From: Chlamydiae bacterium RIFCSPHIGHO2_12_FULL_49_11
Lineage (GTDB): Bacteria; Chlamydiota; Chlamydiia; Chlamydiales; 2-12-FULL-49-11
Length of the DNA: 13,543 bases
NCBI GenBank assembly: GCA_001794905.1
Contig: MGLW01000003.1
Location: forward strand, 1-13,543
Direction of reading: 5' to 3'
Shown here one piece after another: positions 1,069 to 12,239 of this stretch (positions are counted from its first letter, which is position 1; each line of letters begins with the position of its first letter). The translations under genes were made by a program, and so were the position numbers. The notes beneath the pieces are model-generated. The model saw only the letters and a program-made list of their open reading frames with translations, ran no database searches and was not told where the DNA came from.

Positions 1069-2409
1069 ATGCAACGCTTCATGATGGAAAAACTGATCGC
1101 CTGGAAAGCCGATCCGCAAAGAAAACCTCTCCTTCTAAAGGGAGTCAGGCAAGTTGGAAAAACAACTCTTCTCTTAGAATTCGGAAAGAAATATTTTTCC
1201 GGTGTCCACTATCTCAACTTTGAGAAAGAGCCTCAAATTGCCTCTATTTTTGAACCCGACCTCGTCCCCACGCGCATCCTCAGTGATCTTGCTTTTTTTC
1301 TGGAAAAACCGATCCGACCGGGAGAAGATCTTGTTATTTTTGATGAAATTCAAGAAGCTCCCCGGGCTCTCACCTCACTAAAATACTTCAGGGAAGAATG
1401 CCCGAACTTGCACCTTTGCGCTGCAGGATCGCTTCTAGGTCTTTCGCTCGGAAGCTCCTCTTTTCCCGTCGGAAAAGTCGATTTCGAAACACTAAGGCCA
1501 ATGTCATTCGAAGAATTTCTGACAGCGCAGAATGACAAGTCTCTCCCTTATTTCAAAAATATCACATCGAATTCTGCAATCCCGAGTGCGGTTCATGAGC
1601 ATCTCCTCCAAGAACTAAAACATTATTTCGTGGTCGGAGGGCTTCCTGAAGCGGTTTCCACTTACTGCCAACATAAAGGTGATATAACGGAAGCCTTCTC
1701 TCTGGTCCGAAAAAAGCAAAGCGACCTTCTTCTTTCTTATTACGCCGATATTGCCAAACATGCAGGAAAAGTCAATGCAATGCATATCAATCGAGTCTTT
1801 CAGTCAGTTCCTGCACAAATGAGCCATGCCCAAGACGGCTCGATCCGCCGATTCAAATTTAAAGGAGTTGTGCCGGGAATATCACATTACGACAGATTGG
1901 CCGGGGCCATCGATTGGCTGGAAGCCACCGGCATGATCCTCAAAATTCCGATTGTGGAATCGGCTCTGGTTCCCTTTCAAGCCTACGCAAAAGAAAACTG
2001 CTTTAAATTACTCGTATTTGACGTAGGAATGCTGGGACTCATGACAAGCCTCTCGCCCAAAGCCATTCTTGACGGAGATTACGGCAGTTACAAGGGATAT
2101 TTTGTTGAAAACTTTGTTGCGCAGGAACTATTGCTGCGTACCACCCCCCTTCTCTATAGTTGGCAAGAAGGAAATGCCGAAATCGAATTCCTCCTTGAAA
2201 TCGGCGGCAAAGCGGTTCCGGTAGAGGTCAAATCAGGCACTCTCACAAAAGCAAAGAGCTTACAATCTTTTCGGGAAAAATACCGGCCGCCCCTGCAAAT
2301 CATTTTAAGTTCTAAACGCCTTAATATCGGTAATAAAAACGCTGTCCAATATTGCCCCCTCTACTTTACCGACCGTTTCTTCGGCAAACCTAATCCAACT
2401 CGCAGATGA
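1069..2409 (+). CDS. AAA+ ATPase (AAA_14) with C-terminal DUF4143 / PD-(D/E)xK-like domain
   Basis: Walker A GVRQVGKT, Walker B LVIFDEIQ, AAGSLL, GGLPE, DUF4143-type KLLVFDVGML and GYFVENFVAQEL, and terminal EIEFLL...PVEVKSG. 446 aa. Confidence 0.92.
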   Translation: MQRFMMEKLIAWKADPQRKPLLLKGVRQVGKTTLLLEFGKKYFSGVHYLNFEKEPQIASIFEPDLVPTRILSDLAFFLEKPIRPGEDLVIFDEIQEAPRALTSLKYFREECPNLHLCAAGSLLGLSLGSSSFPVGKVDFETLRPMSFEEFLTAQNDKSLPYFKNITSNSAIPSAVHEHLLQELKHYFVVGGLPEAVSTYCQHKGDITEAFSLVRKKQSDLLLSYYADIAKHAGKVNAMHINRVFQSVPAQMSHAQDGSIRRFKFKGVVPGISHYDRLAGAIDWLEATGMILKIPIVESALVPFQAYAKENCFKLLVFDVGMLGLMTSLSPKAILDGDYGSYKGYFVENFVAQELLLRTTPLLYSWQEGNAEIEFLLEIGGKAVPVEVKSGTLTKAKSLQSFREKYRPPLQIILSSKRLNIGNKNAVQYCPLYFTDRFFGKPNPTRR

Positions 2410-4486
2410 GGCTGGAAAGAGGGGCCAGAGTAAGCCACACGCCGGTGCCCGGTTCAATCCGGATGCTTGCGTTCATGACGCCGCCGCCGCCATAGTCCAT
2501 TCCGTCCGTATTGAGGAGTTCGCGGATCGTGGAGGCATTCCGAAGGGGAATAAATTCGTTTTCATAATACATCGGCGTAAAATTGTGCACGAAAAAGAGA
2601 CGCTTCTCTCCTCTCCGGATATAGGCAATGATCGACCGGTCGACATGCTGGTGCACCCACTCGAACGAGCCGGGATCAAAGTCGGTCTGCCATAGGGTCG
2701 GCTCACTGAGATAAAATCGGTTCATGTATTTGACGAAGTTGAACCACTTCCTGTGATTCTCTTCTTGGAGCAAATGCCACGGAAGCTCTTTGTGCGGATC
2801 CCATTCTTCTATCTGGGCAATTTCGATCCCCATAAAGAAGAGCTTTTTCCCGGGATGGCACATGGCATACGAATAACAAAGGCGCATATGTCCGAACTTG
2901 TGCCACATGTCGAGCGGCATTTTTAAGATGAGGTGTTTTTTTTCGTGCACCACCTCATCATGAGAAAGGGGGAGAATGTATTTTTCACGAAACACTTCGG
3001 TAAAGGTATTCAGGAGCTCTTGCAGGTGGTACTTGCGGTACACGGGATCTTTGACGAAAAAGCGGAGGGTGTCGTTCATCCAGCCGATGTTCCACTTGAG
3101 ATCGAAACCGAGTCCACCCTGATAGGTAGGGATCGTGACGGAAGGGTAAAGGGAAGCGTCTTCGGCAATCATGATGGCAGACGCGCTCCTTTTCGCCATC
3201 ATCGAATTGAGATGCTTGAGAAATTCGATCGCCGCCAAATCTTCAGGCCCTCCATATTGGTTGGGAACCCACGCCGTGCCATGACGGGAGTAGTCGAGGT
3301 AGAGGATCGATTGCACCGCATCAACGCGAAGTCCGTCGACGTGAAGCTTCTCAACCCAGAAAAAGGCGGAAGAGAGAAGAAAGGCGACGACTTCCGGTTT
3401 TTCGTAATCGAAAATGAGGGTATCCCATTCGGGGTGCCAGCGCATCACATCGTGATTTTTCTCGTAGAGAGGCCCTCCGTCAAACTCCCGCAAGGCAAAA
3501 CCGTCGGCGGGGAAATGGCCGGGGGTCCAGTCCAAAATCACTCCGATCCCGTTTTCATGCAGGTGGTTGACAAAGTAGGCAAAGTCGTCATAGTTTCCGT
3601 ACCGCGAAGTAGGTGCAAAATAGCCTGTCACTTGGTAGCCCCATGATTCGTCCAGGGGATGCTCGCACACGGGAAGAATCTCGACGTGGGTAAACGACAT
3701 CTCCTTGAGATACTCGGCAAGCAGGTGCGCAAGGGTGCGGTAATTGATCTCTCCGCTAGAGCGCTTCCACGATCCGAGGTGCATTTCGTACACGTTGATG
3801 GGCCGGCTGAGCACTTCATGTTTCACCGCCGGCTTGTTTTTCATCCAAGCCTCGTCGGTAAAGACAAACGTCTCTTTGCATACTCGTGCCGCCGTCTGCG
3901 GCCTGAGCTCATATCCCCTCGCCATAGGATCGGTTTTGTACACAACGCCGCCCGTATCGGAATAAACGGCATATTTATACAGCATCCCTTCGAGAGGCTT
4001 GGAAAAAAAGAGCTCCCAAATGCCCGAATCGCCAATGCGGCGCATCGGATGATATCCCGCTTCAAAGCTGTTGCAATCGGCAATCAGGGCGACCGACTTT
4101 GCTTTCGGAGCCCAGACGGAAAACCGGGTACCTAGAATCCCTTCATGTTCCAAAATTTTCGCTCCGAGCACTTCAAAAAGAGTGTAGTGGACCCCTTGCG
4201 CAAAATAGTACTCGTCCTCTTTTGAGGTGATGATCGAAAAATTGTACGGGTCAAAGTAGGATGCACCGTCGGGAAATAGAAGCGTATAACCGAATTTGCC
4301 GACCTCTTCCGAAAAGGTGTACGAAAACACGCCCCGTTCATCTACCATGGTGGCCGCAACTACATCGCGCCCATATAGAAACACGAGTTCTTTCCGGTTA
4401 GGAGCCAAAATAGTCACGGTCTTATCTTTGAGGCCAAGAAGCATTTCGGGATTACGACACGAATGCTCGAAAAGTTCATTATACAT
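2390..4486 (-). CDS. glgB: 1,4-alpha-glucan (glycogen) branching enzyme, GH13
   Basis: FSVWAPKA, GIWELF, INVYEMHLGSW, SWGYQVTGYFAPTSRYG, VILDWTPGHFP, catalytic DGLRVDAV, IAED and LPLSHDEVVH, and HPGKKLFFMG. 698 aa. Confidence 0.98.
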   Translation of the reverse strand: MYNELFEHSCRNPEMLLGLKDKTVTILAPNRKELVFLYGRDVVAATMVDERGVFSYTFSEEVGKFGYTLLFPDGASYFDPYNFSIITSKEDEYYFAQGVHYTLFEVLGAKILEHEGILGTRFSVWAPKAKSVALIADCNSFEAGYHPMRRIGDSGIWELFFSKPLEGMLYKYAVYSDTGGVVYKTDPMARGYELRPQTAARVCKETFVFTDEAWMKNKPAVKHEVLSRPINVYEMHLGSWKRSSGEINYRTLAHLLAEYLKEMSFTHVEILPVCEHPLDESWGYQVTGYFAPTSRYGNYDDFAYFVNHLHENGIGVILDWTPGHFPADGFALREFDGGPLYEKNHDVMRWHPEWDTLIFDYEKPEVVAFLLSSAFFWVEKLHVDGLRVDAVQSILYLDYSRHGTAWVPNQYGGPEDLAAIEFLKHLNSMMAKRSASAIMIAEDASLYPSVTIPTYQGGLGFDLKWNIGWMNDTLRFFVKDPVYRKYHLQELLNTFTEVFREKYILPLSHDEVVHEKKHLILKMPLDMWHKFGHMRLCYSYAMCHPGKKLFFMGIEIAQIEEWDPHKELPWHLLQEENHRKWFNFVKYMNRFYLSEPTLWQTDFDPGSFEWVHQHVDRSIIAYIRRGEKRLFFVHNFTPMYYENEFIPLRNASTIRELLNTDGMDYGGGGVMNASIRIEPGTGVWLTLAPLSSLICELD

Positions 4487-4501
4487 ATAGAGTATGTATA
4501 A
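4479..4501 (-). promoter_or_regulatory. 9-bp inverted repeat covering the glgB start codon
   Basis: In mRNA sense: TTATACATA-CTCTA-TATGTATAA. The glgB ATG (4486-4484) lies in the 3' arm. The stem begins 2 nt after the upstream TAA. Confidence 0.45.
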
Positions 4502-4503
4502 GC

Positions 4504-5415
4504 TTAGCTTTCAAATTTGTCTAGCAGGTAAATCGACCCCGCCTTGAGTTCGAAGGGCCTGTCCAGTACAAACAGGCGTCGCTTTTGTTTGAGGTAAAGC
4601 CGCACGCCGCACGTCTTATGCAGTTTGGATACAAGAACAATCTCGGCATTTTGGGTGCAGCGGAAAATGCACGTTTTGAGCTTGTATCCGCTCCACTGCA
4701 TGTCCAAAGTTCCGAAATCGGTATGCACCCCGACCATCCGTCCGCGATCGAACGGAGAGACAACCTTTGGAAGAAGCTCGATCTTTTTTCCGTCTGCAAC
4801 GATGAAACGGTTCCTGATCGATTGGAAAAACGCATGGTAGAGAGAAAAAAGAGGAACGGGAAGAGGCCTGAGATCGAGCCCCTGAAATTGCACATCGCCC
4901 GTTTCCGCTTTCAAAAATGAAGACAGATATCCCAAAAGGTGCGCCGGAGCAGCGTCAAGAGGATGCGGCGCTTTCGGCCCCATTTGCCCCATGAGGAAGA
5001 GGATCGGATACCACTCGCGCAGGTCGAACCGGCTCGCTACTTTTTCCCATTCCAACTTTTTCAAAGAGCCCAGGAGGAGTTTTTCTTTCGGAAAAGGTAA
5101 AATTGTTTCACACGGTAGCGTCCATTCTTTTTTCTCTCCGCGCACCATCCTGATGACGAGCCGGTTATTTTCGCCAAATATATTCAGCTGAAAAAACCCG
5201 TCGCGCCCCTCCCCAAACACCTCAACTCTTCCCTGCTCCAAATTGAGGAGCACGGTGAATTTTTTAACCGGGCCTTTCACGGGAAGATCGATTCCCCTAT
5301 CTCCCACAAACAATTTTGCCGGATAGACACGGACAAAACAGTCCGTGTAGGGAACCCATACGGTGCTTCCGATTTCGTGCGTAAAGGGGGTAATTTTCTC
5401 ACGAATCTTAATCAC
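4504..5415 (-). CDS. Conserved hypothetical protein resembling the chlamydial glgB-adjacent (CT865-like) family
   Basis: 303-aa ORF with GTG start, 17 nt upstream of glgB on the same strand. Segments PFTHEIG...VRVYPAKL, LLLGSLKKLEWEKV...DLREWYPILFLMGQ and terminal YLLDKFES resemble the chlamydial protein as I recall it. The family assignment needs a search. Confidence 0.75.
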   Translation of the reverse strand: MIKIREKITPFTHEIGSTVWVPYTDCFVRVYPAKLFVGDRGIDLPVKGPVKKFTVLLNLEQGRVEVFGEGRDGFFQLNIFGENNRLVIRMVRGEKKEWTLPCETILPFPKEKLLLGSLKKLEWEKVASRFDLREWYPILFLMGQMGPKAPHPLDAAPAHLLGYLSSFLKAETGDVQFQGLDLRPLPVPLFSLYHAFFQSIRNRFIVADGKKIELLPKVVSPFDRGRMVGVHTDFGTLDMQWSGYKLKTCIFRCTQNAEIVLVSKLHKTCGVRLYLKQKRRLFVLDRPFELKAGSIYLLDKFES

Positions 5416-5573
5416 ATCATTTTTCCAAGCAGCCCGAATAGGGTATTTTCTTCCACGGCCTTTTCTTCATCACCTGCGGTTGAGAATGCAAACGACTCAT
5501 GTTGAGTTTGATATGCATCCAATTCGGTTTGGTTTCTCCGGTATCCGAGGGTTGCGATTTTGAATTTCTTCAT
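5412..5573 (-). pseudogene. mtaB: 53-aa in-frame remnant of an MtaB/YqeV-type radical SAM methylthiotransferase
   Basis: Hand translation: MKKFKIATLGYRRNQTELDAYQTQHESFAFSTAGDEEKAVEENTLFGLLGKMM*. The N-terminus fits the UPF0004 start pattern F.I.TLGC..NQ.E..AY..Q with Cys replaced by Tyr. There is no radical SAM CxxxCxxC. The stop overlaps the next gene's start (GTGA). Confidence 0.75.
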
Positions 5574-5638
5574 GATGGCATAGATTATAATTCCGTATTT
5601 CCTTTAAAAAAAAGAAAAAAGCCGGTGTCCTTAATTTC

Positions 5639-6301
5639 ATGAGTGTTGTTTCGTTTGCTTTCACCCTGTTTCTCGTCTTCAATTCCTTGGGGAGCATCCC
5701 CGCCCTTGTGGCTATGTTAAAGCCGTATTCACCTCACAGGCAAAGGATTATAATTATTCGAGAAATGCTGATCGCCCTCGGGATCTTACTCATGTTCGGT
5801 TTTTTCGGGCAAACGGTCCTCGACTTCCTCGGAATCACTCCCGCCGTGATCGGGCTTGCGGGCGGCATCTTGCTCCTCATCATTGCGCTTACCATGATTT
5901 TCCCCAAACCGAGCGACGCAAATACAACCATGCGCCCCGTGCAGCACGAGCCGTTTGTCGTCCCGATCGCGATCCCCCTTCTCGCCGGGCCGGGAAGCAT
6001 CACGTCGATCATGCTTTTTGCCACCTATGAGCCGGTGATGTGGAAGATCCTTTTTACCGTCTTCCTTGCGTGGCTCCCGTCTTTTATCATCGTCCTTTCT
6101 TGCTCTTATGTGAAATACCTCGTCGGAGAAAAAGGACTGGTGGCCTTTGAACGCCTTGGCGGCCTCCTCATCGCACTTCTTGCCGTCCAAATGATGGCCT
6201 CCGGTTCGGTTAAACTGGTGCGCGAAAACTTCCTCGTCCCCGAGAAACCGTCTAAAAGTCGAATTGAAAGCCCAGCGCAAAATCCAGAGAAAGGTATTTA
6301 G
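5639..6301 (+). CDS. MarC/YhgN family integral membrane protein
   Basis: LFLVFNSLGSIP, IIREMLIAL, AGGILLLIIALTMIFP, PFVVPIAIPLLAGPGSITSIML and ERLGGLL. About six hydrophobic segments; 220 aa. Confidence 0.93.
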   Translation: MSVVSFAFTLFLVFNSLGSIPALVAMLKPYSPHRQRIIIIREMLIALGILLMFGFFGQTVLDFLGITPAVIGLAGGILLLIIALTMIFPKPSDANTTMRPVQHEPFVVPIAIPLLAGPGSITSIMLFATYEPVMWKILFTVFLAWLPSFIIVLSCSYVKYLVGEKGLVAFERLGGLLIALLAVQMMASGSVKLVRENFLVPEKPSKSRIESPAQNPEKGI

Positions 6302-9300
6302 GCGCGAGGCTGCCGCGGAAAGCGCCATACCATTTGAAAAGGTCGGAATACCTTGCATCGATCCCCACACGGAGAGAGGCCAAATTATAACTTTTCGAAT
6401 AGGTGACCACATCGAAATAGGGAGTCGAATAGTTTTGGAAACTTGGCATTCTTGTCGGAACTCCGAGAGGTGCTATGTAGACCCAGCTGAGGGCTACCTC
6501 GGGACGAAAGCAATGGTGCCCTCTTTTCACATCCACACTCACTTCGAGTCCCAGTTCGGGACGGATGTAAACGTCGCGGCTGTGTTTGACGTGCAGATTC
6601 AAACTTTCGGCTCCCGTTTCGGTAAACCCTTGGCGCCAAAGAATGTCGGTGTCGAAATGGAAAAACGGTTTCACGGTTGTAATTCCGAGAAGGGCGTTGT
6701 AGGCCATCCCAATATGGGTATCGAAAGAATATCCCCAGTGTGAATTCGTTGCAGTGGCATTCACTGTAGCAAACTGCATGCCGCGGGATAAATGTACTTT
6801 GTCAAAGGTGCCCATCAGGGCAATGTCGAGCACCGTGTGCAAAGCGGTCCAATGCATGTACGGCCCCATAAATCCGGAGTTGTCCTCCCCTTTGGAACCG
6901 TAATCTTTCTTCCATCGGAGCGAGCTGTAGAAATATCCGCCTGAAATTCCAAGAAGGAGATCATCTACCGGCATCACATCAAAGCCAACCGCGCCGCCGA
7001 AATTTGCCGTTTGAAACCCTTTGTTCAGGTTGAAGAATCCGCCAAACTTTTTCTCGTATGCACGCACCGTTTGGGTATCGGCAAAGGGGGTAAACCACAC
7101 GTCGAAAAGATGCTTCCGGCACACTTGACGTGTGTGGAGCACGATATCGAAGATCGAACTCATCACTTCCTGCCTGAGAAGGCTGAGCGCACCGAAGATC
7201 GACGGCTGCATGCTATCGAGCGCGTTTGTGAGCGCTGCCGAATCAAGGCTGTCGAGATCGTTCTCGACAATGGAGAGAAGGCCCGTTGAATCATTAGTGA
7301 CAAACGTTTCGAGAAAATTGTTCACTTGCAATGGATTGTACCGGTCAATCGTTTTATTCACGAAAAAGTCGTTTTGTATCACTGTGAGAAGGATGCTATT
7401 CGGAGTGTAAATTAGATTGAGAGTGAGGGGAAGAGTCCCGAGATTCGTGCTGTTCCATGTGCCGCTGATGCCCCCTTCTGCCTGAAGAAGCGTGTAGGTG
7501 CGCCCTTTTACATACGATGTGCCGAGAAGGATCACTTCGAGCGTGCCGTCCAGAGACGCCGCTCCCGACACATCGAGAAGGTCGGAGCGTCCCTTGTTAT
7601 CAATTTCTGCGATATATACGGCGCCTGTCAGTTGCGTATAATCTCCTGCAATCTCAATCGTTCCGATGGAGTGGCCGGGAAAAACCGTTCCGCTGCTGAC
7701 GAGGTGCCCCAGAAAACCGTTTCCCGAAAGACGTGCTGTCGGATGCAGGTATAGCTGACTCTTGCATCCCAGTCCGCCGCGATCGAGATCCAACTTTCCT
7801 TCATGAATTTCCAGGGCTCCCGTAAAATCGTCGCATGGCTCTTGCAAGAGAATGGTTCCGGGTCCTGTCTTTTGAGCAATCCCGCTCCCGGAAAAAGAGT
7901 GGAATCGGTGGCTTCCCTCTTCCAGATGAAATGCCGTCTCTCCTTCAACGGCAATATGACTTGGCACCTTCTGGGATTGCAGCCAGAGTTCAGTCTGATG
8001 ACACAGTGTTACAAGCACGTTTTCATGGAGAGCATGATGACAAAACGTGAGTTTTCCTTCTTTTGCAGTAATCGTTCCGGAAAAGGCATCGATGTCGGAA
8101 AGGGAGAGTTCTCCACTTCCCGTTTTGGTAAGGGATGCACTAGAGCCGATGAGGGCCCCCGTTAGTGCTACCGTATTCTGTACTTCTATTGTCGCGTTTT
8201 GACTGACCGAAATCGGCACGACACCGTCGGACATAAGTCCTAGGGTAGCAGCATCTTCAAGTATAACCGGCCCGCACATCCCGCAATCTAAAAACAGCGA
8301 GCCTTCCCGGACGGAGGTCGTTCCCGCATATCCCCCTTTTTGTCGGAGACAGAGCATTCCCTTTCCCGTCTTAATGAGGGATCCTCCGCCCCCAACTAAG
8401 CCGGCAAGGACCACTTCCCCTGCTTCCACCTCTATAACCGCATCCCCTGCCAATGTGACAGATGCTTCCACGGTTTGATTTTCCAATGCCAGGCGCGCCC
8501 TATGCCCGATCTCAATGGAGATGGCCTTTAGCGCCTCCTTGTCTTTCAAGGCTAAACACCCCTCTTCAAGCAGGATCTTCCCTTCCAATCCGGAAAGGTC
8601 GTGTATAACAAGCCTGCCCGCTCCCCCTTTGTACAACGTCCCGGAACCCTCGACCCGTCCCGTGAGCTCCGCGCTTCCTTCCAGAACATCGATCGCCCCC
8701 TCTCCGACCTGCATGAGGTCCGAGAGAAACGGCTCCTCCCTTCCATGAAATGCAATTCTTCCTTTTTCCATGAGGGAAACGGGGCCGGTTCCGATCCTTT
8801 GTGCCCTCGAGTTCAGAATGAGCGTTCCGCCCAGCACCACCGTTTCGCCGGTAAAAGAAGCCTCATTTGAGAGGGTGACCGTGCCGATGCCGCGCTTGAT
8901 GAGTTTGCCGCTCCCGCGGATGTCCCCCTCGAGGACAGCACTCCCCCCCTCGGTCCACAAGGTAAAGTCACCGCTGAGACGGAACGGATTAGCAAGCGTC
9001 ACATCTCCTTCCAAAAAAGTAAGATCCCCTCCCTCAATCTGACATCTTTCCCGGCCAAGATGGACCCCGCTCCCTTTTAAGGCAAGTGTGCCTTCGGACA
9101 AAACGGTTCCCGACTCGCATGTTACGGGTTTTGTGAGTGTGAGTCTGCCGCAGCCCCGTTTGACAAGCCCTCCGAGGCCGTCCACTTTTTCGAGGAAGGT
9201 CGCATCGGAACCCGCCTCTACCGTCACCGACGTAACGGGAGCAAGTTCCACCGGGCCGCGAATTTCCGTTCCGGGTGCCGTTATATGAAGCGCAGCACCT

Positions 9301-9437
9301 GTTTTCAAGCGAAGAGGCGAAGTTCCGAGAAGTTCGTTTCCCGAAGAGAGAACTTGCTCTTTCTCATCGAGAATGAAAATTTTTTCCTCGCCTTGGAGAA
9401 GGGCCGCAAGCAAAAGAGCCGCAAAAAAAAGCCGCAT
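6252..9437 (-). CDS. Type V autotransporter with passenger-associated transport repeats (PATR) and C-terminal beta-barrel
   Basis: Preferred start is ATG 9437, giving signal-peptide-like MRLFFAALLLAALLQG (the ORF track extends to TTG 9482). Six KxGxGxL-type repeats, a junction PGHSIGTIEIAGDYTQ...SDLLDVSGAASLDGTL, a barrel from about DVWFTPF, and an outer-membrane-type end LDFALGFQFDF with terminal Phe. Confidence 0.92.
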   Translation of the reverse strand: MRLFFAALLLAALLQGEEKIFILDEKEQVLSSGNELLGTSPLRLKTGAALHITAPGTEIRGPVELAPVTSVTVEAGSDATFLEKVDGLGGLVKRGCGRLTLTKPVTCESGTVLSEGTLALKGSGVHLGRERCQIEGGDLTFLEGDVTLANPFRLSGDFTLWTEGGSAVLEGDIRGSGKLIKRGIGTVTLSNEASFTGETVVLGGTLILNSRAQRIGTGPVSLMEKGRIAFHGREEPFLSDLMQVGEGAIDVLEGSAELTGRVEGSGTLYKGGAGRLVIHDLSGLEGKILLEEGCLALKDKEALKAISIEIGHRARLALENQTVEASVTLAGDAVIEVEAGEVVLAGLVGGGGSLIKTGKGMLCLRQKGGYAGTTSVREGSLFLDCGMCGPVILEDAATLGLMSDGVVPISVSQNATIEVQNTVALTGALIGSSASLTKTGSGELSLSDIDAFSGTITAKEGKLTFCHHALHENVLVTLCHQTELWLQSQKVPSHIAVEGETAFHLEEGSHRFHSFSGSGIAQKTGPGTILLQEPCDDFTGALEIHEGKLDLDRGGLGCKSQLYLHPTARLSGNGFLGHLVSSGTVFPGHSIGTIEIAGDYTQLTGAVYIAEIDNKGRSDLLDVSGAASLDGTLEVILLGTSYVKGRTYTLLQAEGGISGTWNSTNLGTLPLTLNLIYTPNSILLTVIQNDFFVNKTIDRYNPLQVNNFLETFVTNDSTGLLSIVENDLDSLDSAALTNALDSMQPSIFGALSLLRQEVMSSIFDIVLHTRQVCRKHLFDVWFTPFADTQTVRAYEKKFGGFFNLNKGFQTANFGGAVGFDVMPVDDLLLGISGGYFYSSLRWKKDYGSKGEDNSGFMGPYMHWTALHTVLDIALMGTFDKVHLSRGMQFATVNATATNSHWGYSFDTHIGMAYNALLGITTVKPFFHFDTDILWRQGFTETGAESLNLHVKHSRDVYIRPELGLEVSVDVKRGHHCFRPEVALSWVYIAPLGVPTRMPSFQNYSTPYFDVVTYSKSYNLASLRVGIDARYSDLFKWYGAFRGSLAPKYLSLDFALGFQFDF
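7790..9175 (-). repeat. Six degenerate ~86-aa PATR-containing modules in the passenger (protein-level repeat)
   Basis: GGLVKRGCGRLTL, GKLIKRGIGTVTL, GTLYKGGAGRLVI, GSLIKTGKGMLCL, ASLTKTGSGELSL and GIAQKTGPGTILL. The conserved Lys falls at ORF-track residues 108, 196, 285, 371, 453 and 538. Confidence 0.85.
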
Positions 9438-9491
9438 CGGTGTACAGAATCCCTTTTCCGTCACACTACAAAAAAACCGCAAGCTCCGCCA

Positions 9492-10175: not shown

Positions 10176-11497
10176 TCGGTTTCCACTTCACGCGTTACAT
10201 AGAAAGGGGCCAGTTTTTTTTCCAGGGCGGTGGGAATTTCCACCCGCATCAAAATGTCGTTTTCTTCATACTCCATCTGAATCACGCGCCCTTCCTGCAG
10301 TACGGCGTGCACCAAAGCATACTTTTCTTGGGGAATGCGAAGGTCAACCACCTGCCGGAGCCTTTGCACCTCTTTTTCCATCATTATGAAAAGAGAGTCA
10401 AAACCGGTCCCATCTTTGGCAGAAATGAAAACCGAATTCGGATACAACGAAGAGAGCCTTTTCAGATGGATCGGATTTTCCACACGGTCACACTTGTTGA
10501 ACACAAAAATCACCGGCTTATCAACCACTCCGAGCTCGTGGAGCACTTTTTCCGTTTCCTGAATGTAAATCTCGGCCTTCGGATCGGAAGCATCCACAAT
10601 GTGGAGGAGCGAGTCGGTATAGATCGACTCTTCCAGAGTGCTTTTAAATGCGGCTATCAGAAGGTGGGGAAGTTTGCGAATGAACCCTACCGTATCGATG
10701 AGGATGATTTGCTGGTGATTGGGAAGGGTAAAGCGGCGTGCCGTTGTATCGAGCGTAGCAAAGAGTTTATCTTCAACATACACATGCGCATCGGTCAGGC
10801 GATTGAGCAGCGTCGACTTGCCGGCGTTAGTATAACCTACAATGGCAAAGGTCGGAATCGCGCTTTTCTTGCGCGCCTTGCGCTCCACACCCCGCTGCTT
10901 TGCTACCTGCTTGATTTCCCGTTTGAGGGTACTCACCCTTTCTTTGATGATACGGCGGTCTAATTCGATTTGCTTCTCCCCTTCTCCGCGGAGTGGGCCC
11001 CGGCCCGATCCCGACATGCGTTGGCGCGACAGATGCGTCCACATCCTCTTCAGTCGCGGGAGCTGATATTCGCTTTGTGCAAGCTCGACCTGCAGCATCG
11101 CCTCTTTCGTTTTGGCCCGTTGATGGAACACTTCCAGGATAAGTGCGGAACGTGTGAGTACGGGGCGGCGGATGATTTCTTCGAGATTTTTTTCCTGATT
11201 GGGAGAGACTTCGTCATCGAAAATGACAAGGTCGATTTTTTCCGCTTCGCATATTTCGGCAATCTCTTCCGCCTTTCCTTTACCAATGAACGTTGCTGCC
11301 GAATATTCCTTGATCGGACAAAATAGTTTGCGCCTTGTTACGAGGCCGTACGTCACGGCAAGCGACTCGAGCTCAGCAATCAGATCTTCCACTCCGAGCC
11401 TGCTTCCGCCTGACGGATATGTGGTGATAAGAATCGCCGACTTCAACTTGTCCAGTTCAAAACGGAGCCCTTCGTGTGATTTTTTATCGGAATGCAA
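10172..11497 (-). CDS. hflX: Ribosome-splitting GTPase HflX
   Basis: FIGKGK, LILEVFHQRAKTKEAMLQVELAQ, GEGEKQIELDRR, G1 GYTNAGKSTL, DKLFATLD, G3 DTVGFI, G4 NKCD and SAK. Start reassigned to TTG 11497 because GGAGGT lies 5 nt upstream; the ORF track gives 11563. Confidence 0.97.
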   Translation of the reverse strand: MHSDKKSHEGLRFELDKLKSAILITTYPSGGSRLGVEDLIAELESLAVTYGLVTRRKLFCPIKEYSAATFIGKGKAEEIAEICEAEKIDLVIFDDEVSPNQEKNLEEIIRRPVLTRSALILEVFHQRAKTKEAMLQVELAQSEYQLPRLKRMWTHLSRQRMSGSGRGPLRGEGEKQIELDRRIIKERVSTLKREIKQVAKQRGVERKARKKSAIPTFAIVGYTNAGKSTLLNRLTDAHVYVEDKLFATLDTTARRFTLPNHQQIILIDTVGFIRKLPHLLIAAFKSTLEESIYTDSLLHIVDASDPKAEIYIQETEKVLHELGVVDKPVIFVFNKCDRVENPIHLKRLSSLYPNSVFISAKDGTGFDSLFIMMEKEVQRLRQVVDLRIPQEKYALVHAVLQEGRVIQMEYEENDILMRVEIPTALEKKLAPFYVTREVETE

Positions 11498-12239
11498 AGC
11501 CCACCTCCAATCCGTCATAGGCAAGTTCAAATCCGGGCGGCAGCTCGCTATTTTTCTTCTCATGATTGATTTCGTGAGAAAGATGAGTCAAGTATACCTT
11601 GCGTGCACTCGTCTTTTTTGCAAAGGCAACAGCCTCATCGAGAGAAAAATGCATGTGCGTTCCCTCTTCATGAATAGCCCCGAGAATGAGCGTATCGATT
11701 TGTTGTAAATATTCAAACACCGACGTTTCATATTCGCGGATATCGGTCACATAGGCAAGGTTGCCGAAACAAAAACCGGTCACGGCCACTTCCTGCTGCC
11801 GGTAGCTGATGAAACGGAAGGGCACATCCAGAATCTCCCCTTCTCCATATTTTTCTTCGAGCACCTTCACTTCAAACCAGTGCATAAAATAATGGAAGCG
11901 GATCGAGAGTTCTTCGGCCGTTTCTTTCGACATAACCATCGGAATGCTCCTTACAAGCGTCTTTATCACGGCACGGAGGTCGTCAATGCCGCCGATGTGG
12001 TCCTGATGCGCATGAGTGATCATAACACCGTCAATCCGGGAAATCCCGTTTGCGAGCGCCGCCGCGCGAAAGTCGACCGACACATCGACCAGGATATTTT
12101 TCCCGCGCACCATAACAAGAATGCTCGAGCGCAATCTCTTATTCCTGGGATCGTGCGAGATGCAGACAGGGCACTTGCACCCGACGAGCGGCACGCCGAG
12201 CGACGCTCCCGTTCCCAAAAACCGCACTTTCCCGTCCAT
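11484..12239 (-). CDS. MBL-fold metallo-hydrolase, PhnP-like (Lactamase_B_2)
   Basis: FLGTGASLGVP...CKCPVC...RLRSS, metal motif THAHQDHIGG, AYVTD, HMHF, YLTHLSH and LAYDGL. 251 aa. No phn operon is present, so the substrate is unknown. Confidence 0.93.
   Translation of the reverse strand: MDGKVRFLGTGASLGVPLVGCKCPVCISHDPRNKRLRSSILVMVRGKNILVDVSVDFRAAALANGISRIDGVMITHAHQDHIGGIDDLRAVIKTLVRSIPMVMSKETAEELSIRFHYFMHWFEVKVLEEKYGEGEILDVPFRFISYRQQEVAVTGFCFGNLAYVTDIREYETSVFEYLQQIDTLILGAIHEEGTHMHFSLDEAVAFAKKTSARKVYLTHLSHEINHEKKNSELPPGFELAYDGLEVGFAFR
11503..11508 (-). promoter_or_regulatory. Shine-Dalgarno sequence for hflX, inside the 3' end of the upstream gene
   Basis: GGAGGT-gggct-TTG, with the TTG in the hflX frame. 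Confidence 0.7.

What the first reader, a model, noticed from the sequence alone, without database searches (positions are those of the whole stretch)
5412..5573. Unannotated 53-aa mini-gene: an mtaB-like methylthiotransferase collapsed to its two ends
Seen: an intact ORF below the track's length cut-off. Its first ~39 residues follow the methylthiotransferase N-terminal (UPF0004) pattern, with the Fe-S ligand Cys of TLGC changed to Tyr (TAC, one substitution from TGC). Its last ~14 residues (VEENTLFGLLGKMM) resemble how I recall chlamydial YqeV/MtaB C-termini. Its stop overlaps the next start (GTGA). Established: full-length MtaB is over 400 aa and makes ms2t6A37 in tRNA. Recalled: Chlamydia pneumoniae has the order phnP-hflX-yqeV-hypothetical-glgB. 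Inference: an in-frame deletion of over 1 kb removed the radical SAM core, and the stub may persist as a leader that delivers ribosomes to the glycogen operon, i.e. a dead enzyme gene reused as a coupling element.
Basis: partly seen in the sequence, partly recalled or inferred. Interest (0 to 1): 0.7.

Follow-up and report, generated by a model that had tools for sequence, protein, structure and literature searches.

The report
Collapsed remnant of tRNA-modifying gene mtaB
A 53-codon open reading frame in an environmental chlamydia-like genome is what is left of the tRNA-modifying enzyme gene mtaB after its middle was deleted in frame, a tidy snapshot of ordinary gene loss rather than a new kind of element.

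Summary
The ORF at 5412-5573 lies on the minus strand. Its residues 2-39 match the N-terminus of MtaB from relatives (23.9 bits; second-best of 28,804 open frames in the genome). Its last 14 residues match MtaB C-termini in the same frame (10.9 bits; reached by 5e-6 of random 14-mers). It sits where mtaB sits in relatives: marC (opposite strand), mtaB, a conserved hypothetical gene, glgB. About 360 codons are missing, so the radical-SAM core, two of the three N-domain cysteines and most of the TRAM domain are gone. The remaining cysteine is Tyr (TAC). Contigs from three sequencing runs bridge the stub without a difference, so it is not a misassembly. No intact mtaB was found in the 82%-complete assembly.

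The GTGA stop/start overlap is inherited, not new: 7 of 16 relatives with mtaB have the same 4-base overlap. Only 17 of 41 related genomes have an mtaB over the family cut-off, and their relics differ: none, a start-less scrap, or a fusion to the next gene.

The stub is best read as a decaying relic. Its two ends carry the operon's promoter-proximal start and the next gene's start region. A selected ribosome-delivery role is possible but unproven.

The parts
5412..5573 (-). 53-codon stub ORF (ATG to TGA), the remnant of mtaB
5457..5573 (-). Codons 1-39, derived from the MtaB N-terminus (start of the UPF0004 domain). Profile positions 4-41 match residues 2-39.
5541..5543 (-). Codon 11, TAC (Tyr), in the column where 16 of 16 MtaB have the first cluster-binding Cys of TLGC
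5415..5456 (-). Codons 40-53, derived from the last residues of MtaB (end of the TRAM domain). The deletion joint lies at about 5456/5457.
5412..5415 (-). GTGA: the stop of the stub (TGA, 5412-5414) overlaps the GTG start of the next gene (5413-5415). This junction is inherited from the ancestral mtaB.
4504..5415 (-). Conserved chlamydial hypothetical gene (303 aa, P0002) that follows mtaB in relatives. A GH95-like fold is a lead only.
2390..4486 (-). glgB (glycogen branching enzyme), 17 bases after the hypothetical gene
5584..5589 (-). TATAAT, a -10-like hexamer 10 bases upstream of the stub's ATG. The same position is conserved in related loci.
   Evidence: the consensus scan called no full promoter
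5602..5614 (-). Conserved block CTTTTTTTTAAAG, which ends 12 bases before the -10-like hexamer in the loci that have it
5639..6301 (+). marC-family membrane protein gene, divergent neighbour that marks the ancestral locus

Best explanation
The ORF is a dead relic of mtaB, the gene for the radical-SAM methylthiotransferase that turns t6A37 of tRNA into ms2t6A37 (function known from the family, not tested here).

Shown: an internal deletion of about 360 codons joined codon 39 to the 14th codon from the end, in frame. This removed two of the three N-domain cysteines, the whole radical-SAM core and most of the TRAM domain. The peptide cannot be an enzyme.

Shown: the two ends that survive are the two pieces of mtaB that also serve the downstream genes. 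The 5' end sits directly behind a conserved promoter-like block and carries the first start codon of the transcript. The 3' end carries the start region of the next gene, including the ancestral 4-base stop/start overlap.

Inferred: the stub is still transcribed as the first, very short cistron of a stub-hypothetical-glgB message, probably with almost no 5' leader. Ribosomes that translate it end exactly on the next gene's GTG, as they did when mtaB was whole. I take this as passive inheritance, not a new function. The peptide has no role of its own, the middle went because mtaB is dispensable in this group, and the rest is eroding.
For: Homology of both ends in one frame.

Synteny: 16 of the 17 relatives with an mtaB over the NCBIfam cut-off have it directly upstream of the P0002 homologue on the same strand. 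marC lies divergent upstream.

The relatives' gene is MtaB by the equivalog model TIGR01579 (445.9 bits against a cut-off of 357).

Decay: 3 of 10 near-invariant columns covered by the stub are changed (Cys to Tyr, Tyr to Thr, Gly to Ala).

Real DNA: the exact peptide is on record from 6 contigs. Contigs of 3 runs from 2 studies bridge 5412-5573 with no difference, gap or joint. These runs may include the source sample.

Dispensability: only 17 of 41 related genomes have an mtaB over the cut-off. All 13 mtaB-less loci examined have marC directly beside the hypothetical gene. A tree of the hypothetical protein needs at least 4 presence/absence changes on well-supported branches.

Inherited overlap: ATGA or GTGA in 7 of 16 loci with mtaB, and a longer overlap in 2 more by my reading.

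Conserved promoter-like block with the first start codon 6-10 bases after the -10-like hexamer in loci with and without mtaB.
Against: The frame has stayed open over 53 codons and the deletion is in frame (a 1-in-3 chance), which fits selection for translation as well as it fits luck.

No transcript, start-site or ribosome data exist for this organism.

The consensus scan found no sigma-70-type promoter in 5300-5750. The -35 region is not canonical.

Leaderless mRNAs are rare in the Chlamydia species mapped so far: 5 of 437 mRNAs in C. pneumoniae (PMC3333780, passages read) and 3 in C. trachomatis (PMC2817459, passages read).

The assembly is 82% complete, so an intact mtaB elsewhere is not excluded.

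No sister genome carries the stub, so its age and any constraint cannot be measured.
Confidence: 0.68

Rival explanations
1. Reused leader cistron. The stub is kept by selection because ribosomes that start at its promoter-proximal ATG are handed to the next gene by termination-reinitiation at GTGA. On this view the hypothetical gene, and perhaps glgB, depend on it for translation.
For: The deletion is in frame, and the ORF is open despite changes at near-invariant residues.

The exact ancestral stop/start overlap is kept.

The next gene has only GGA about 11 bases upstream of its GTG, so no clear Shine-Dalgarno sequence.

In other lineages the first start behind the conserved -10-like hexamer also stays connected to the hypothetical gene. 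In two genomes (L019, L020) the hypothetical gene's frame extends 15 codons up to an ATG at the old mtaB start position. In five genomes of one genus its start lies 6 bases after the hexamer.
Against: Two mtaB-less relatives (L016, L018) have roughly 35-40 bases between the hexamer and the start with no upstream start codon. One (L004) has about 65 bases and its own GAGGA. So the gene is expressed there, presumably, without any leader cistron.

Most genes in this window lack a Shine-Dalgarno sequence too, so its absence is not special.

The junction RNA shows no structure that translation would have to open: z = +0.70, and 152 of 200 shuffles fold at least as well.

An in-frame deletion has a 1-in-3 chance. 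53 open codons after modest drift is not improbable.
Confidence: 0.25
2. Assembly artefact. A full mtaB exists here and the assembler collapsed it.
For: The genome is a fragmented metagenome bin (71 contigs, 82% complete). Depth is low, about 4-6 per run.
Against: Separately assembled contigs from 3 runs of 2 studies cross the stub with 0 differences, no joints and no loose ends. The identical peptide is recorded from 6 contigs, the longest 17,657 bases. No radical-SAM or MtaB-type sequence without a home was found elsewhere in the assembly. A unique 1.1 kb stretch is not what assemblers collapse.
Confidence: 0.02
3. A small protein with a function of its own, for instance one that binds a partner of the former enzyme.
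For: Only that the frame is open and has a start codon.
Against: It keeps 39 residues of a roughly 100-residue domain and 14 of a TRAM domain. The conserved Cys, Tyr and Gly are changed. No similar short protein exists in the 5.8-billion-protein collection other than itself. No relative keeps such a peptide.
Confidence: 0.03
4. A chance ORF with an accidental likeness to methylthiotransferase ends.
For: Pfam and NCBIfam give no hit. The search of the big protein collection among longer proteins found nothing.
Against: It is the second-best hit of 28,804 frames to the MtaB profile. The tail matches independently. It has the exact ancestral position and strand.
Confidence: 0.01

Closest known systems
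MtaB / YqeV, tRNA t6A37 methylthiotransferase (NCBIfam TIGR01579; MiaB/RimO radical-SAM family)
   Same: The stub descends from this gene. Its first 39 residues and last 14 residues align to MtaB of relatives in one frame, and the stub occupies the mtaB slot of the conserved locus. The N-terminal motif is the MtaB type (TLGC-R-x-NQ-Y-E). It scores 24 bits on the MtaB profile, against 6.6 for the genome's MiaB N-terminal fragment.
   Different: It has 53 residues instead of 402-433 (ORF lengths). There is no radical-SAM core, most of the TRAM domain is gone, and the one remaining cluster cysteine is Tyr. It is a gene remnant, not a member of the enzyme family.
Gene remnants left by deletion in shrinking genomes of intracellular bacteria (Rickettsia, Mycobacterium leprae, insect symbionts; recalled, no paper read here)
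   Same: A dispensable gene is lost by deletion at its ancestral locus with flanking synteny intact, and related lineages show different stages of erosion.
   Different: Here the deletion is in frame and leaves an intact start, stop and stop/start overlap. The remnant therefore still looks like a gene and may still be translated.
Translational coupling through overlapping stop and start codons (ATGA/GTGA; textbook cases in the trp operon, recalled)
   Same: The stub's TGA overlaps the next gene's GTG by 4 bases. This is the geometry of termination-reinitiation, and it is the same in 7 of 16 relatives with a whole mtaB.
   Different: Coupling has not been measured in this organism or its relatives. 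Several relatives have the downstream gene with no upstream cistron at all.
Leaderless mRNAs (described in Chlamydia pneumoniae and C. trachomatis start-site maps: PMC3333780, PMC2817459, passages read)
   Same: The first start codon lies 6-10 bases after a conserved -10-like hexamer in this locus across the family, which would give a 5' leader of zero to a few bases.
   Different: No transcription start has been mapped here. Such mRNAs are rare in the mapped species (5 of 437, and 3). The promoter call rests on conservation only, and the consensus scan found none.

Membership tests
MtaB (TIGR01579), functional enzyme | Whole-protein score over the curated cut-off (357 bits) | tested here: not met
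   No NCBIfam hit at E<=1 for the stub. The genome-wide search with TIGR01579 finds only the RimO paralogue, below the cut-off.
MtaB (TIGR01579), functional enzyme | N-terminal UPF0004 domain with three cysteines that hold the second iron-sulfur cluster (feature recalled from the family literature) | tested here: not met
   Only the first 39 residues remain. The TLGC cysteine is Tyr. The stretch with the NTC motif seen in 16 of 16 relatives is deleted. Pfam PF00919 gives no hit.
MtaB (TIGR01579), functional enzyme | Radical-SAM core (PF04055) | tested here: not met
   The ORF is 53 residues. The 4 PF04055 matches in the genome all lie on other contigs.
MtaB (TIGR01579), functional enzyme | C-terminal TRAM domain | tested here: not met
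   Only the last 14 residues remain.
mtaB gene remnant (descent from mtaB) | Significant similarity to MtaB at both ends, in one frame | tested here: met
   23.9 bits for residues 2-39 and rank 2 of 28,804 frames. Tail 10.9 bits, reached by 5e-6 of random 14-mers. MAFFT --add splits the peptide the same way.
mtaB gene remnant (descent from mtaB) | Located at the ancestral mtaB locus | tested here: met
   marC (divergent), mtaB, hypothetical gene, glgB in relatives. 16 of 17 mtaB are directly upstream of the hypothetical gene.
Translationally coupled leader cistron | Stop of the upstream ORF overlaps or abuts the downstream start | tested here: met
   GTGA at 5412-5415.
Translationally coupled leader cistron | The upstream ORF is translated | not testable with these tools
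   No RNA run holding the region was listed. There are no ribosome data.
Translationally coupled leader cistron | Downstream translation depends on upstream translation | tested here: inconclusive
   No occluding RNA structure and a weak Shine-Dalgarno sequence. Relatives both with and without any upstream cistron exist.
Leaderless mRNA | Transcription start at or within a few bases of the start codon | not testable with these tools
   Only a conserved -10-like hexamer 10 bases upstream. The scan called no promoter.

The most novel reading that the evidence does not exclude
The two ends of a dead enzyme gene have been kept as a mini-cistron of 53 codons, with almost no 5' leader, because the downstream glycogen-linked genes have no ribosome entry of their own. 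Ribosomes load at the 5'-terminal ATG inherited from mtaB and are passed on at the inherited GTGA overlap. The different outcomes of mtaB loss in relatives (in-frame stub, in-frame fusion to the next gene, next gene moved to the leaderless position) would then be alternative solutions to one constraint: keep the first start codon connected to the next gene.
Probability: 0.2. Interest if true: 0.55.

Novelty: new member of a known kind. Interest (0 to 1): 0.3.

Why it matters
In itself this is ordinary: a dispensable tRNA-modification gene caught halfway through its loss in a small chlamydia-like genome. It has three modest uses.

First, annotation. The ORF should be labelled an mtaB remnant, not a small protein. 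The organism should be scored as lacking ms2t6A unless an intact copy turns up in the unassembled 18%.

Second, the locus offers a natural series of independent mtaB losses with different scars. At least 4 presence/absence changes are forced on well-supported branches among 31 loci. Such a series shows which parts of a lost gene are protected because they serve its neighbours.

Third, if the leaderless-plus-coupling reading were confirmed, it would be a clean example of expression signals outliving the gene that carried them.

Tried and rejected
Generic libraries. Pfam and NCBIfam on the stub gave no hit. The PF00919 genome search at E<=10 did not list the stub either. A lineage-specific profile was needed.

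Big protein collection. At similar lengths only the stub itself was found. Among longer proteins 13 word-sharing candidates were collected and none scored. That search needs exact 5-residue words, so this is weak evidence.

Sister genomes. The window's genus has no other genome among the 41 searched. The metagenome scan with the neighbouring protein returned only the window's own record. No test of ORF retention or dN/dS was therefore possible.

Expression. No RNA holder was listed for the region.

Runs X4-X6 hold only small shares of the region. X4's contigs do not cover the stub, so they say nothing about it.

Promoter and terminator scan of 5300-5750: none found.

RNA fold of the start-to-junction region: no more stable than shuffles, z = +0.70.

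Rfam on 5200-5800: two chance-level hits, E 0.8-0.9.

Opposite-strand and overlapping mechanical ORFs: one weak sub-threshold Pfam hit, 16 bits against a cut-off of 27. Rejected as chance.

Pairwise DNA alignments with a cheap long gap, meant to locate deletion endpoints in mtaB-less relatives, were noisy in the middle. Only the promoter-proximal and start-of-next-gene blocks aligned convincingly. The relic readings for L016, L018 and L019/L020 therefore rest on my eye over.

One script printed nothing useful because of a slicing slip and was repeated.

My pattern for pulling MtaB ORFs missed one of the 17 (L034), so the profile has 16 sequences.

Earlier notes of this scan: nothing near this place.

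The paper search for MtaB with Chlamydia listed 10 of 71 papers. None is about mtaB loss by title or abstract, and I did not open them.

Full report
WHAT IS THERE

The window is the first 13,543 bases of a 14,389-base contig. The contig belongs to a 1.26 Mb, 71-contig, 82%-complete metagenome bin. The bin looks chlamydial: the Atlas clusters nearest to the neighbouring protein are mostly Chlamydiota.

An ATG-to-TGA ORF of 53 codons lies on the minus strand at 5412-5573. The genes on that strand, in order, are:
- a DAO-type oxidoreductase;
- a metallo-beta-lactamase-fold (phnP-like) gene;
- hflX;
- radC;
- a 1,076-residue autotransporter;
- marC, which is on the plus strand (5639-6301);
- the stub;
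- a 303-residue hypothetical gene (4504-5415, GTG start);
- glgB (2390-4486).

IS IT mtaB COLLAPSED TO ITS ENDS? YES

Generic libraries miss the stub, so I used relatives.

Synteny. The hypothetical gene has homologues in 37 of 41 related genomes, counting the window's own. The MtaB equivalog model TIGR01579 is met over its cut-off in 17 of 41. In 16 of those 17 the mtaB lies directly upstream of the hypothetical gene on the same strand (coordinates). One of these genes scores 445.9 bits against the cut-off of 357.

N-terminal part. Stub residues 2-39 align to the N-termini of these syntenic MtaB at 34-53% identity. On a profile of 16 of them the stub scores 23.9 bits, covering profile positions 4-41. 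Among all 28,804 six-frame open frames of 25 aa or more in the assembly, the stub is the second-best hit (E 2.4e-5). Only the RimO paralogue on another contig scores higher, and the MiaB N-terminal fragment at a contig end scores far lower, at 6.6 bits.

C-terminal part. The last 14 residues align without gaps to the MtaB C-terminal consensus (..EN.P.GL[IV]GK..). They score 10.9 bits on a position matrix. That score is reached by 5e-6 of 200,000 random 14-mers from the genome's long open frames, by 0 of 3,536 C-termini of those open frames, and by 1.5e-4 of shuffles. I chose the columns after seeing the alignment. However, this is also the best offset over the whole peptide, and MAFFT --add places the peptide as one N-terminal block and one C-terminal block on its own.

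The deletion. Both ends are in one reading frame, so the deletion was in frame. The joint lies between codons 39 and 40 (window 5456/5457). MtaB ORFs of relatives are 402-433 codons, so about 360 codons, or 1.1 kb, are missing.

What is lost. The NTC cysteine motif, the radical-SAM core and most of the TRAM domain are gone. The remaining TLGC cysteine is Tyr (TAC), in a column where 16 of 16 relatives have Cys. In all, 3 of the 10 near-invariant columns that the stub covers are changed (Cys to Tyr, Tyr to Thr, Gly to Ala). Mean identity to MtaB in the covered columns is 0.40, against 0.49 among MtaB themselves. So the stub has drifted beyond what working enzymes allow.

IS IT REAL DNA? YES, AS FAR AS CONTIGS CAN SHOW

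The identical peptide is on record from 6 contigs, the longest 17,657 bases. Three runs from two studies hold 97-98% of the sampled words of 4900-6100. Their separately built contigs cross 5412-5573 with no other letter, gap, joint or loose end (records 2, 4 and 8). These runs may include the source sample and depth is only 4-6, so this is not fully independent evidence. No sign of a collapsed full gene exists.

No intact mtaB was found elsewhere in the assembly. TIGR01579 hits only RimO, below the cut-off. The four radical-SAM matches are RimO and three other genes. The missing 18% of the genome leaves this open.

THE LOCUS IN RELATIVES

mtaB is widely dispensable in this group: 24 of 41 genomes, the window's own among them, lack a match over the cut-off.

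In all 13 mtaB-less loci that I fetched, marC lies divergent and directly beside the hypothetical gene. tblastn with MtaB finds no remnant there at E<=1. I printed the results of two of the five queries. Apart from the full-length genes and the window's stub, their only hit was a weak one at E 0.15 in L010.

A quick tree of the hypothetical protein (31 rows, poorly resolved in its deep branches) needs 7 presence/absence changes by parsimony. At least 4 are forced by branches with SH-aLRT of 95 or more. They include changes inside two genera.

A conserved block, C-T(7-8)-A(3-4)-G/C, followed after 12 bases by a -10-like hexamer (TATAAT, TATACT, TATGAT, TAGAAT), is present in 14 of the 18 loci I searched with a pattern. 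A variant of it is visible in L017.

The first start codon follows that hexamer closely:
- by 8-10 bases in the three loci with mtaB that have the block, and in the window;
- by 6 bases in five mtaB-less genomes of one genus, where the first start is the hypothetical gene's own start (L009, L010, L011, L015; L017).

In L019 and L020 the hypothetical gene's frame extends 15 codons upstream to an ATG 8 bases after the hexamer, within the 8-10-base range of the mtaB starts. In L018 the corresponding triplet reads TAG and about 40 bases follow before the start. L016 keeps CTT ATA TGA, the same last codons as the mtaB of L006. L004 has about 65 bases and its own GAGGA. These last readings are by eye. 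My gapped DNA alignments were too noisy to fix the endpoints.

THE OVERLAP IS INHERITED

In 7 of 16 loci with mtaB, its stop overlaps the next start as ATGA or GTGA. In 2 more the overlap is longer by my reading, and 2 have gaps of 4 and 14 bases. The closest case, L008, reads ..GGAAAAGTGTTGTGATTAAA.. where the window reads ..GGAAAAATGATGTGATTAAG...

HOW IT MOST LIKELY WORKS

Shown: the peptide cannot be an enzyme. The two retained ends coincide with the promoter-proximal start and with the next gene's start region.

Inferred: the stub is the first cistron of a stub-hypothetical-glgB transcript with a very short leader, and ribosomes translating it terminate on the next gene's GTG.

Whether that matters is open. 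Four points favour a selected role:
- the in-frame deletion;
- the open frame despite drift;
- the weak Shine-Dalgarno sequence of the next gene;
- the first start staying connected to the hypothetical gene in three kinds of relatives.

Five points count against it:
- an in-frame deletion has a 1-in-3 chance;
- Shine-Dalgarno sequences are weak for most genes in the window;
- the junction RNA has no structure to be opened (z = +0.70);
- at least three relatives have no upstream cistron;
- leaderless mRNAs are rare in the mapped Chlamydia species (5 of 437 in PMC3333780; 3 in PMC2817459; passages read).

I put the passive relic at about 0.68 and the selected leader at about 0.25.

OTHER STRAND AND RNA

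The mechanical ORFs on the plus strand, and the one overlapping on the minus strand, have no family support. Rfam gives only chance-level hits.

COMPARISON AND NOVELTY

The stub is a remnant of MtaB, not a member of the enzyme family. Every defining feature of the enzyme that I could test is missing. As a phenomenon it belongs with gene remnants of reductive genome evolution and with overlapping-codon coupling, both well known (recalled). What is a little unusual is the tidy in-frame collapse to both termini and the comparative series of scars at one locus. The paper search for MtaB with Chlamydia listed nothing on this by title or abstract (10 of 71 listed, none opened), which is weak evidence that it is not in print.

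VERDICT

The deletion reading is supported. The coupling-element reading is unproven, and the overlap is inherited. Interest is low to moderate.

Noticed in passing
window 5584-5614 (minus strand), and L004, L006, L009-L012, L015, L016, L018-L021, L029: A conserved block C-T(7-8)-A(3-4)-G/C, followed after exactly 12 bases by a -10-like hexamer, sits in the marC/(mtaB or hypothetical gene) intergenic region in 14 of 18 loci searched. The first start codon follows 6-10 bases after the hexamer in most of them, which suggests a leaderless or near-leaderless message.
   Followed up: partly
related genomes G001-G040: mtaB over the family cut-off is present in only 17 of 41 related genomes. It is present in some and absent in other members of two genera. 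The tree of the neighbouring protein forces at least 4 gains or losses on well-supported branches.
   Followed up: partly
L019 and L020, about 40-100 bases after the conserved block: In two mtaB-less genomes the hypothetical gene's frame extends 15 codons upstream of its usual MIKI start, to an ATG in the 8-10-base range where related genomes have the mtaB start. It looks like a fusion of the old first start to the next gene.
   Followed up: partly
L018 and L016, between the -10-like hexamer and the hypothetical gene's start: L018 appears to keep about 20 bases of the mtaB 5' end, with TAG where relatives have ATG. L016 keeps the last two mtaB codons and the stop (CTT ATA TGA) overlapping the next start. 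Both are start-less scraps.
   Followed up: partly
window 4504-5415 (minus strand): The conserved chlamydial hypothetical protein next to glgB has no Pfam or NCBIfam family. The Atlas model of it aligns to glycoside hydrolase family 95 catalytic domains (TM 0.67-0.77 by query), and its nearest clusters carry a GH95 C-terminal domain in 16-58% of members. This is a lead that it is a sugar-acting protein.
   Followed up: no
window 6252-9482 (minus strand): A 1,076-residue autotransporter with PATR repeats lies between radC and marC. In two relatives (L014, L015) radC abuts marC directly, so this gene looks like an insertion in the window's lineage.
   Followed up: no
G000 contig C19, last 100 bases (L002): A MiaB-type N-terminus (..YIRTYGCQMNE..) runs off the contig end. 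Its radical-SAM part was not found anywhere in the assembly, so miaB is probably split by an assembly gap.
   Followed up: no
G000 contig C46 (L001 448-2439, minus strand): The RimO gene (496.6 bits, over its cut-off) lies in a 663-codon ORF whose RimO part begins at residue 219. The long N-terminal stretch may be an over-called start or a real extension.
   Followed up: no
window, start regions of 11 genes: Hardly any of the genes in the window has a recognisable Shine-Dalgarno sequence within 15 bases of its start.
   Followed up: no
window 5837: The contig of one run (X1) reads C where the window and two other runs read A, inside marC. This was the only difference found over 4300-6500.
   Followed up: no
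window 2390-2409 and 11484-11563: The 3' ends of glgB and the AAA_14/DUF4143 ATPase gene overlap convergently by 20 bases. The called hflX start overlaps the phnP-like gene's end by 80 bases, so the hflX start may be over-called.
   Followed up: no
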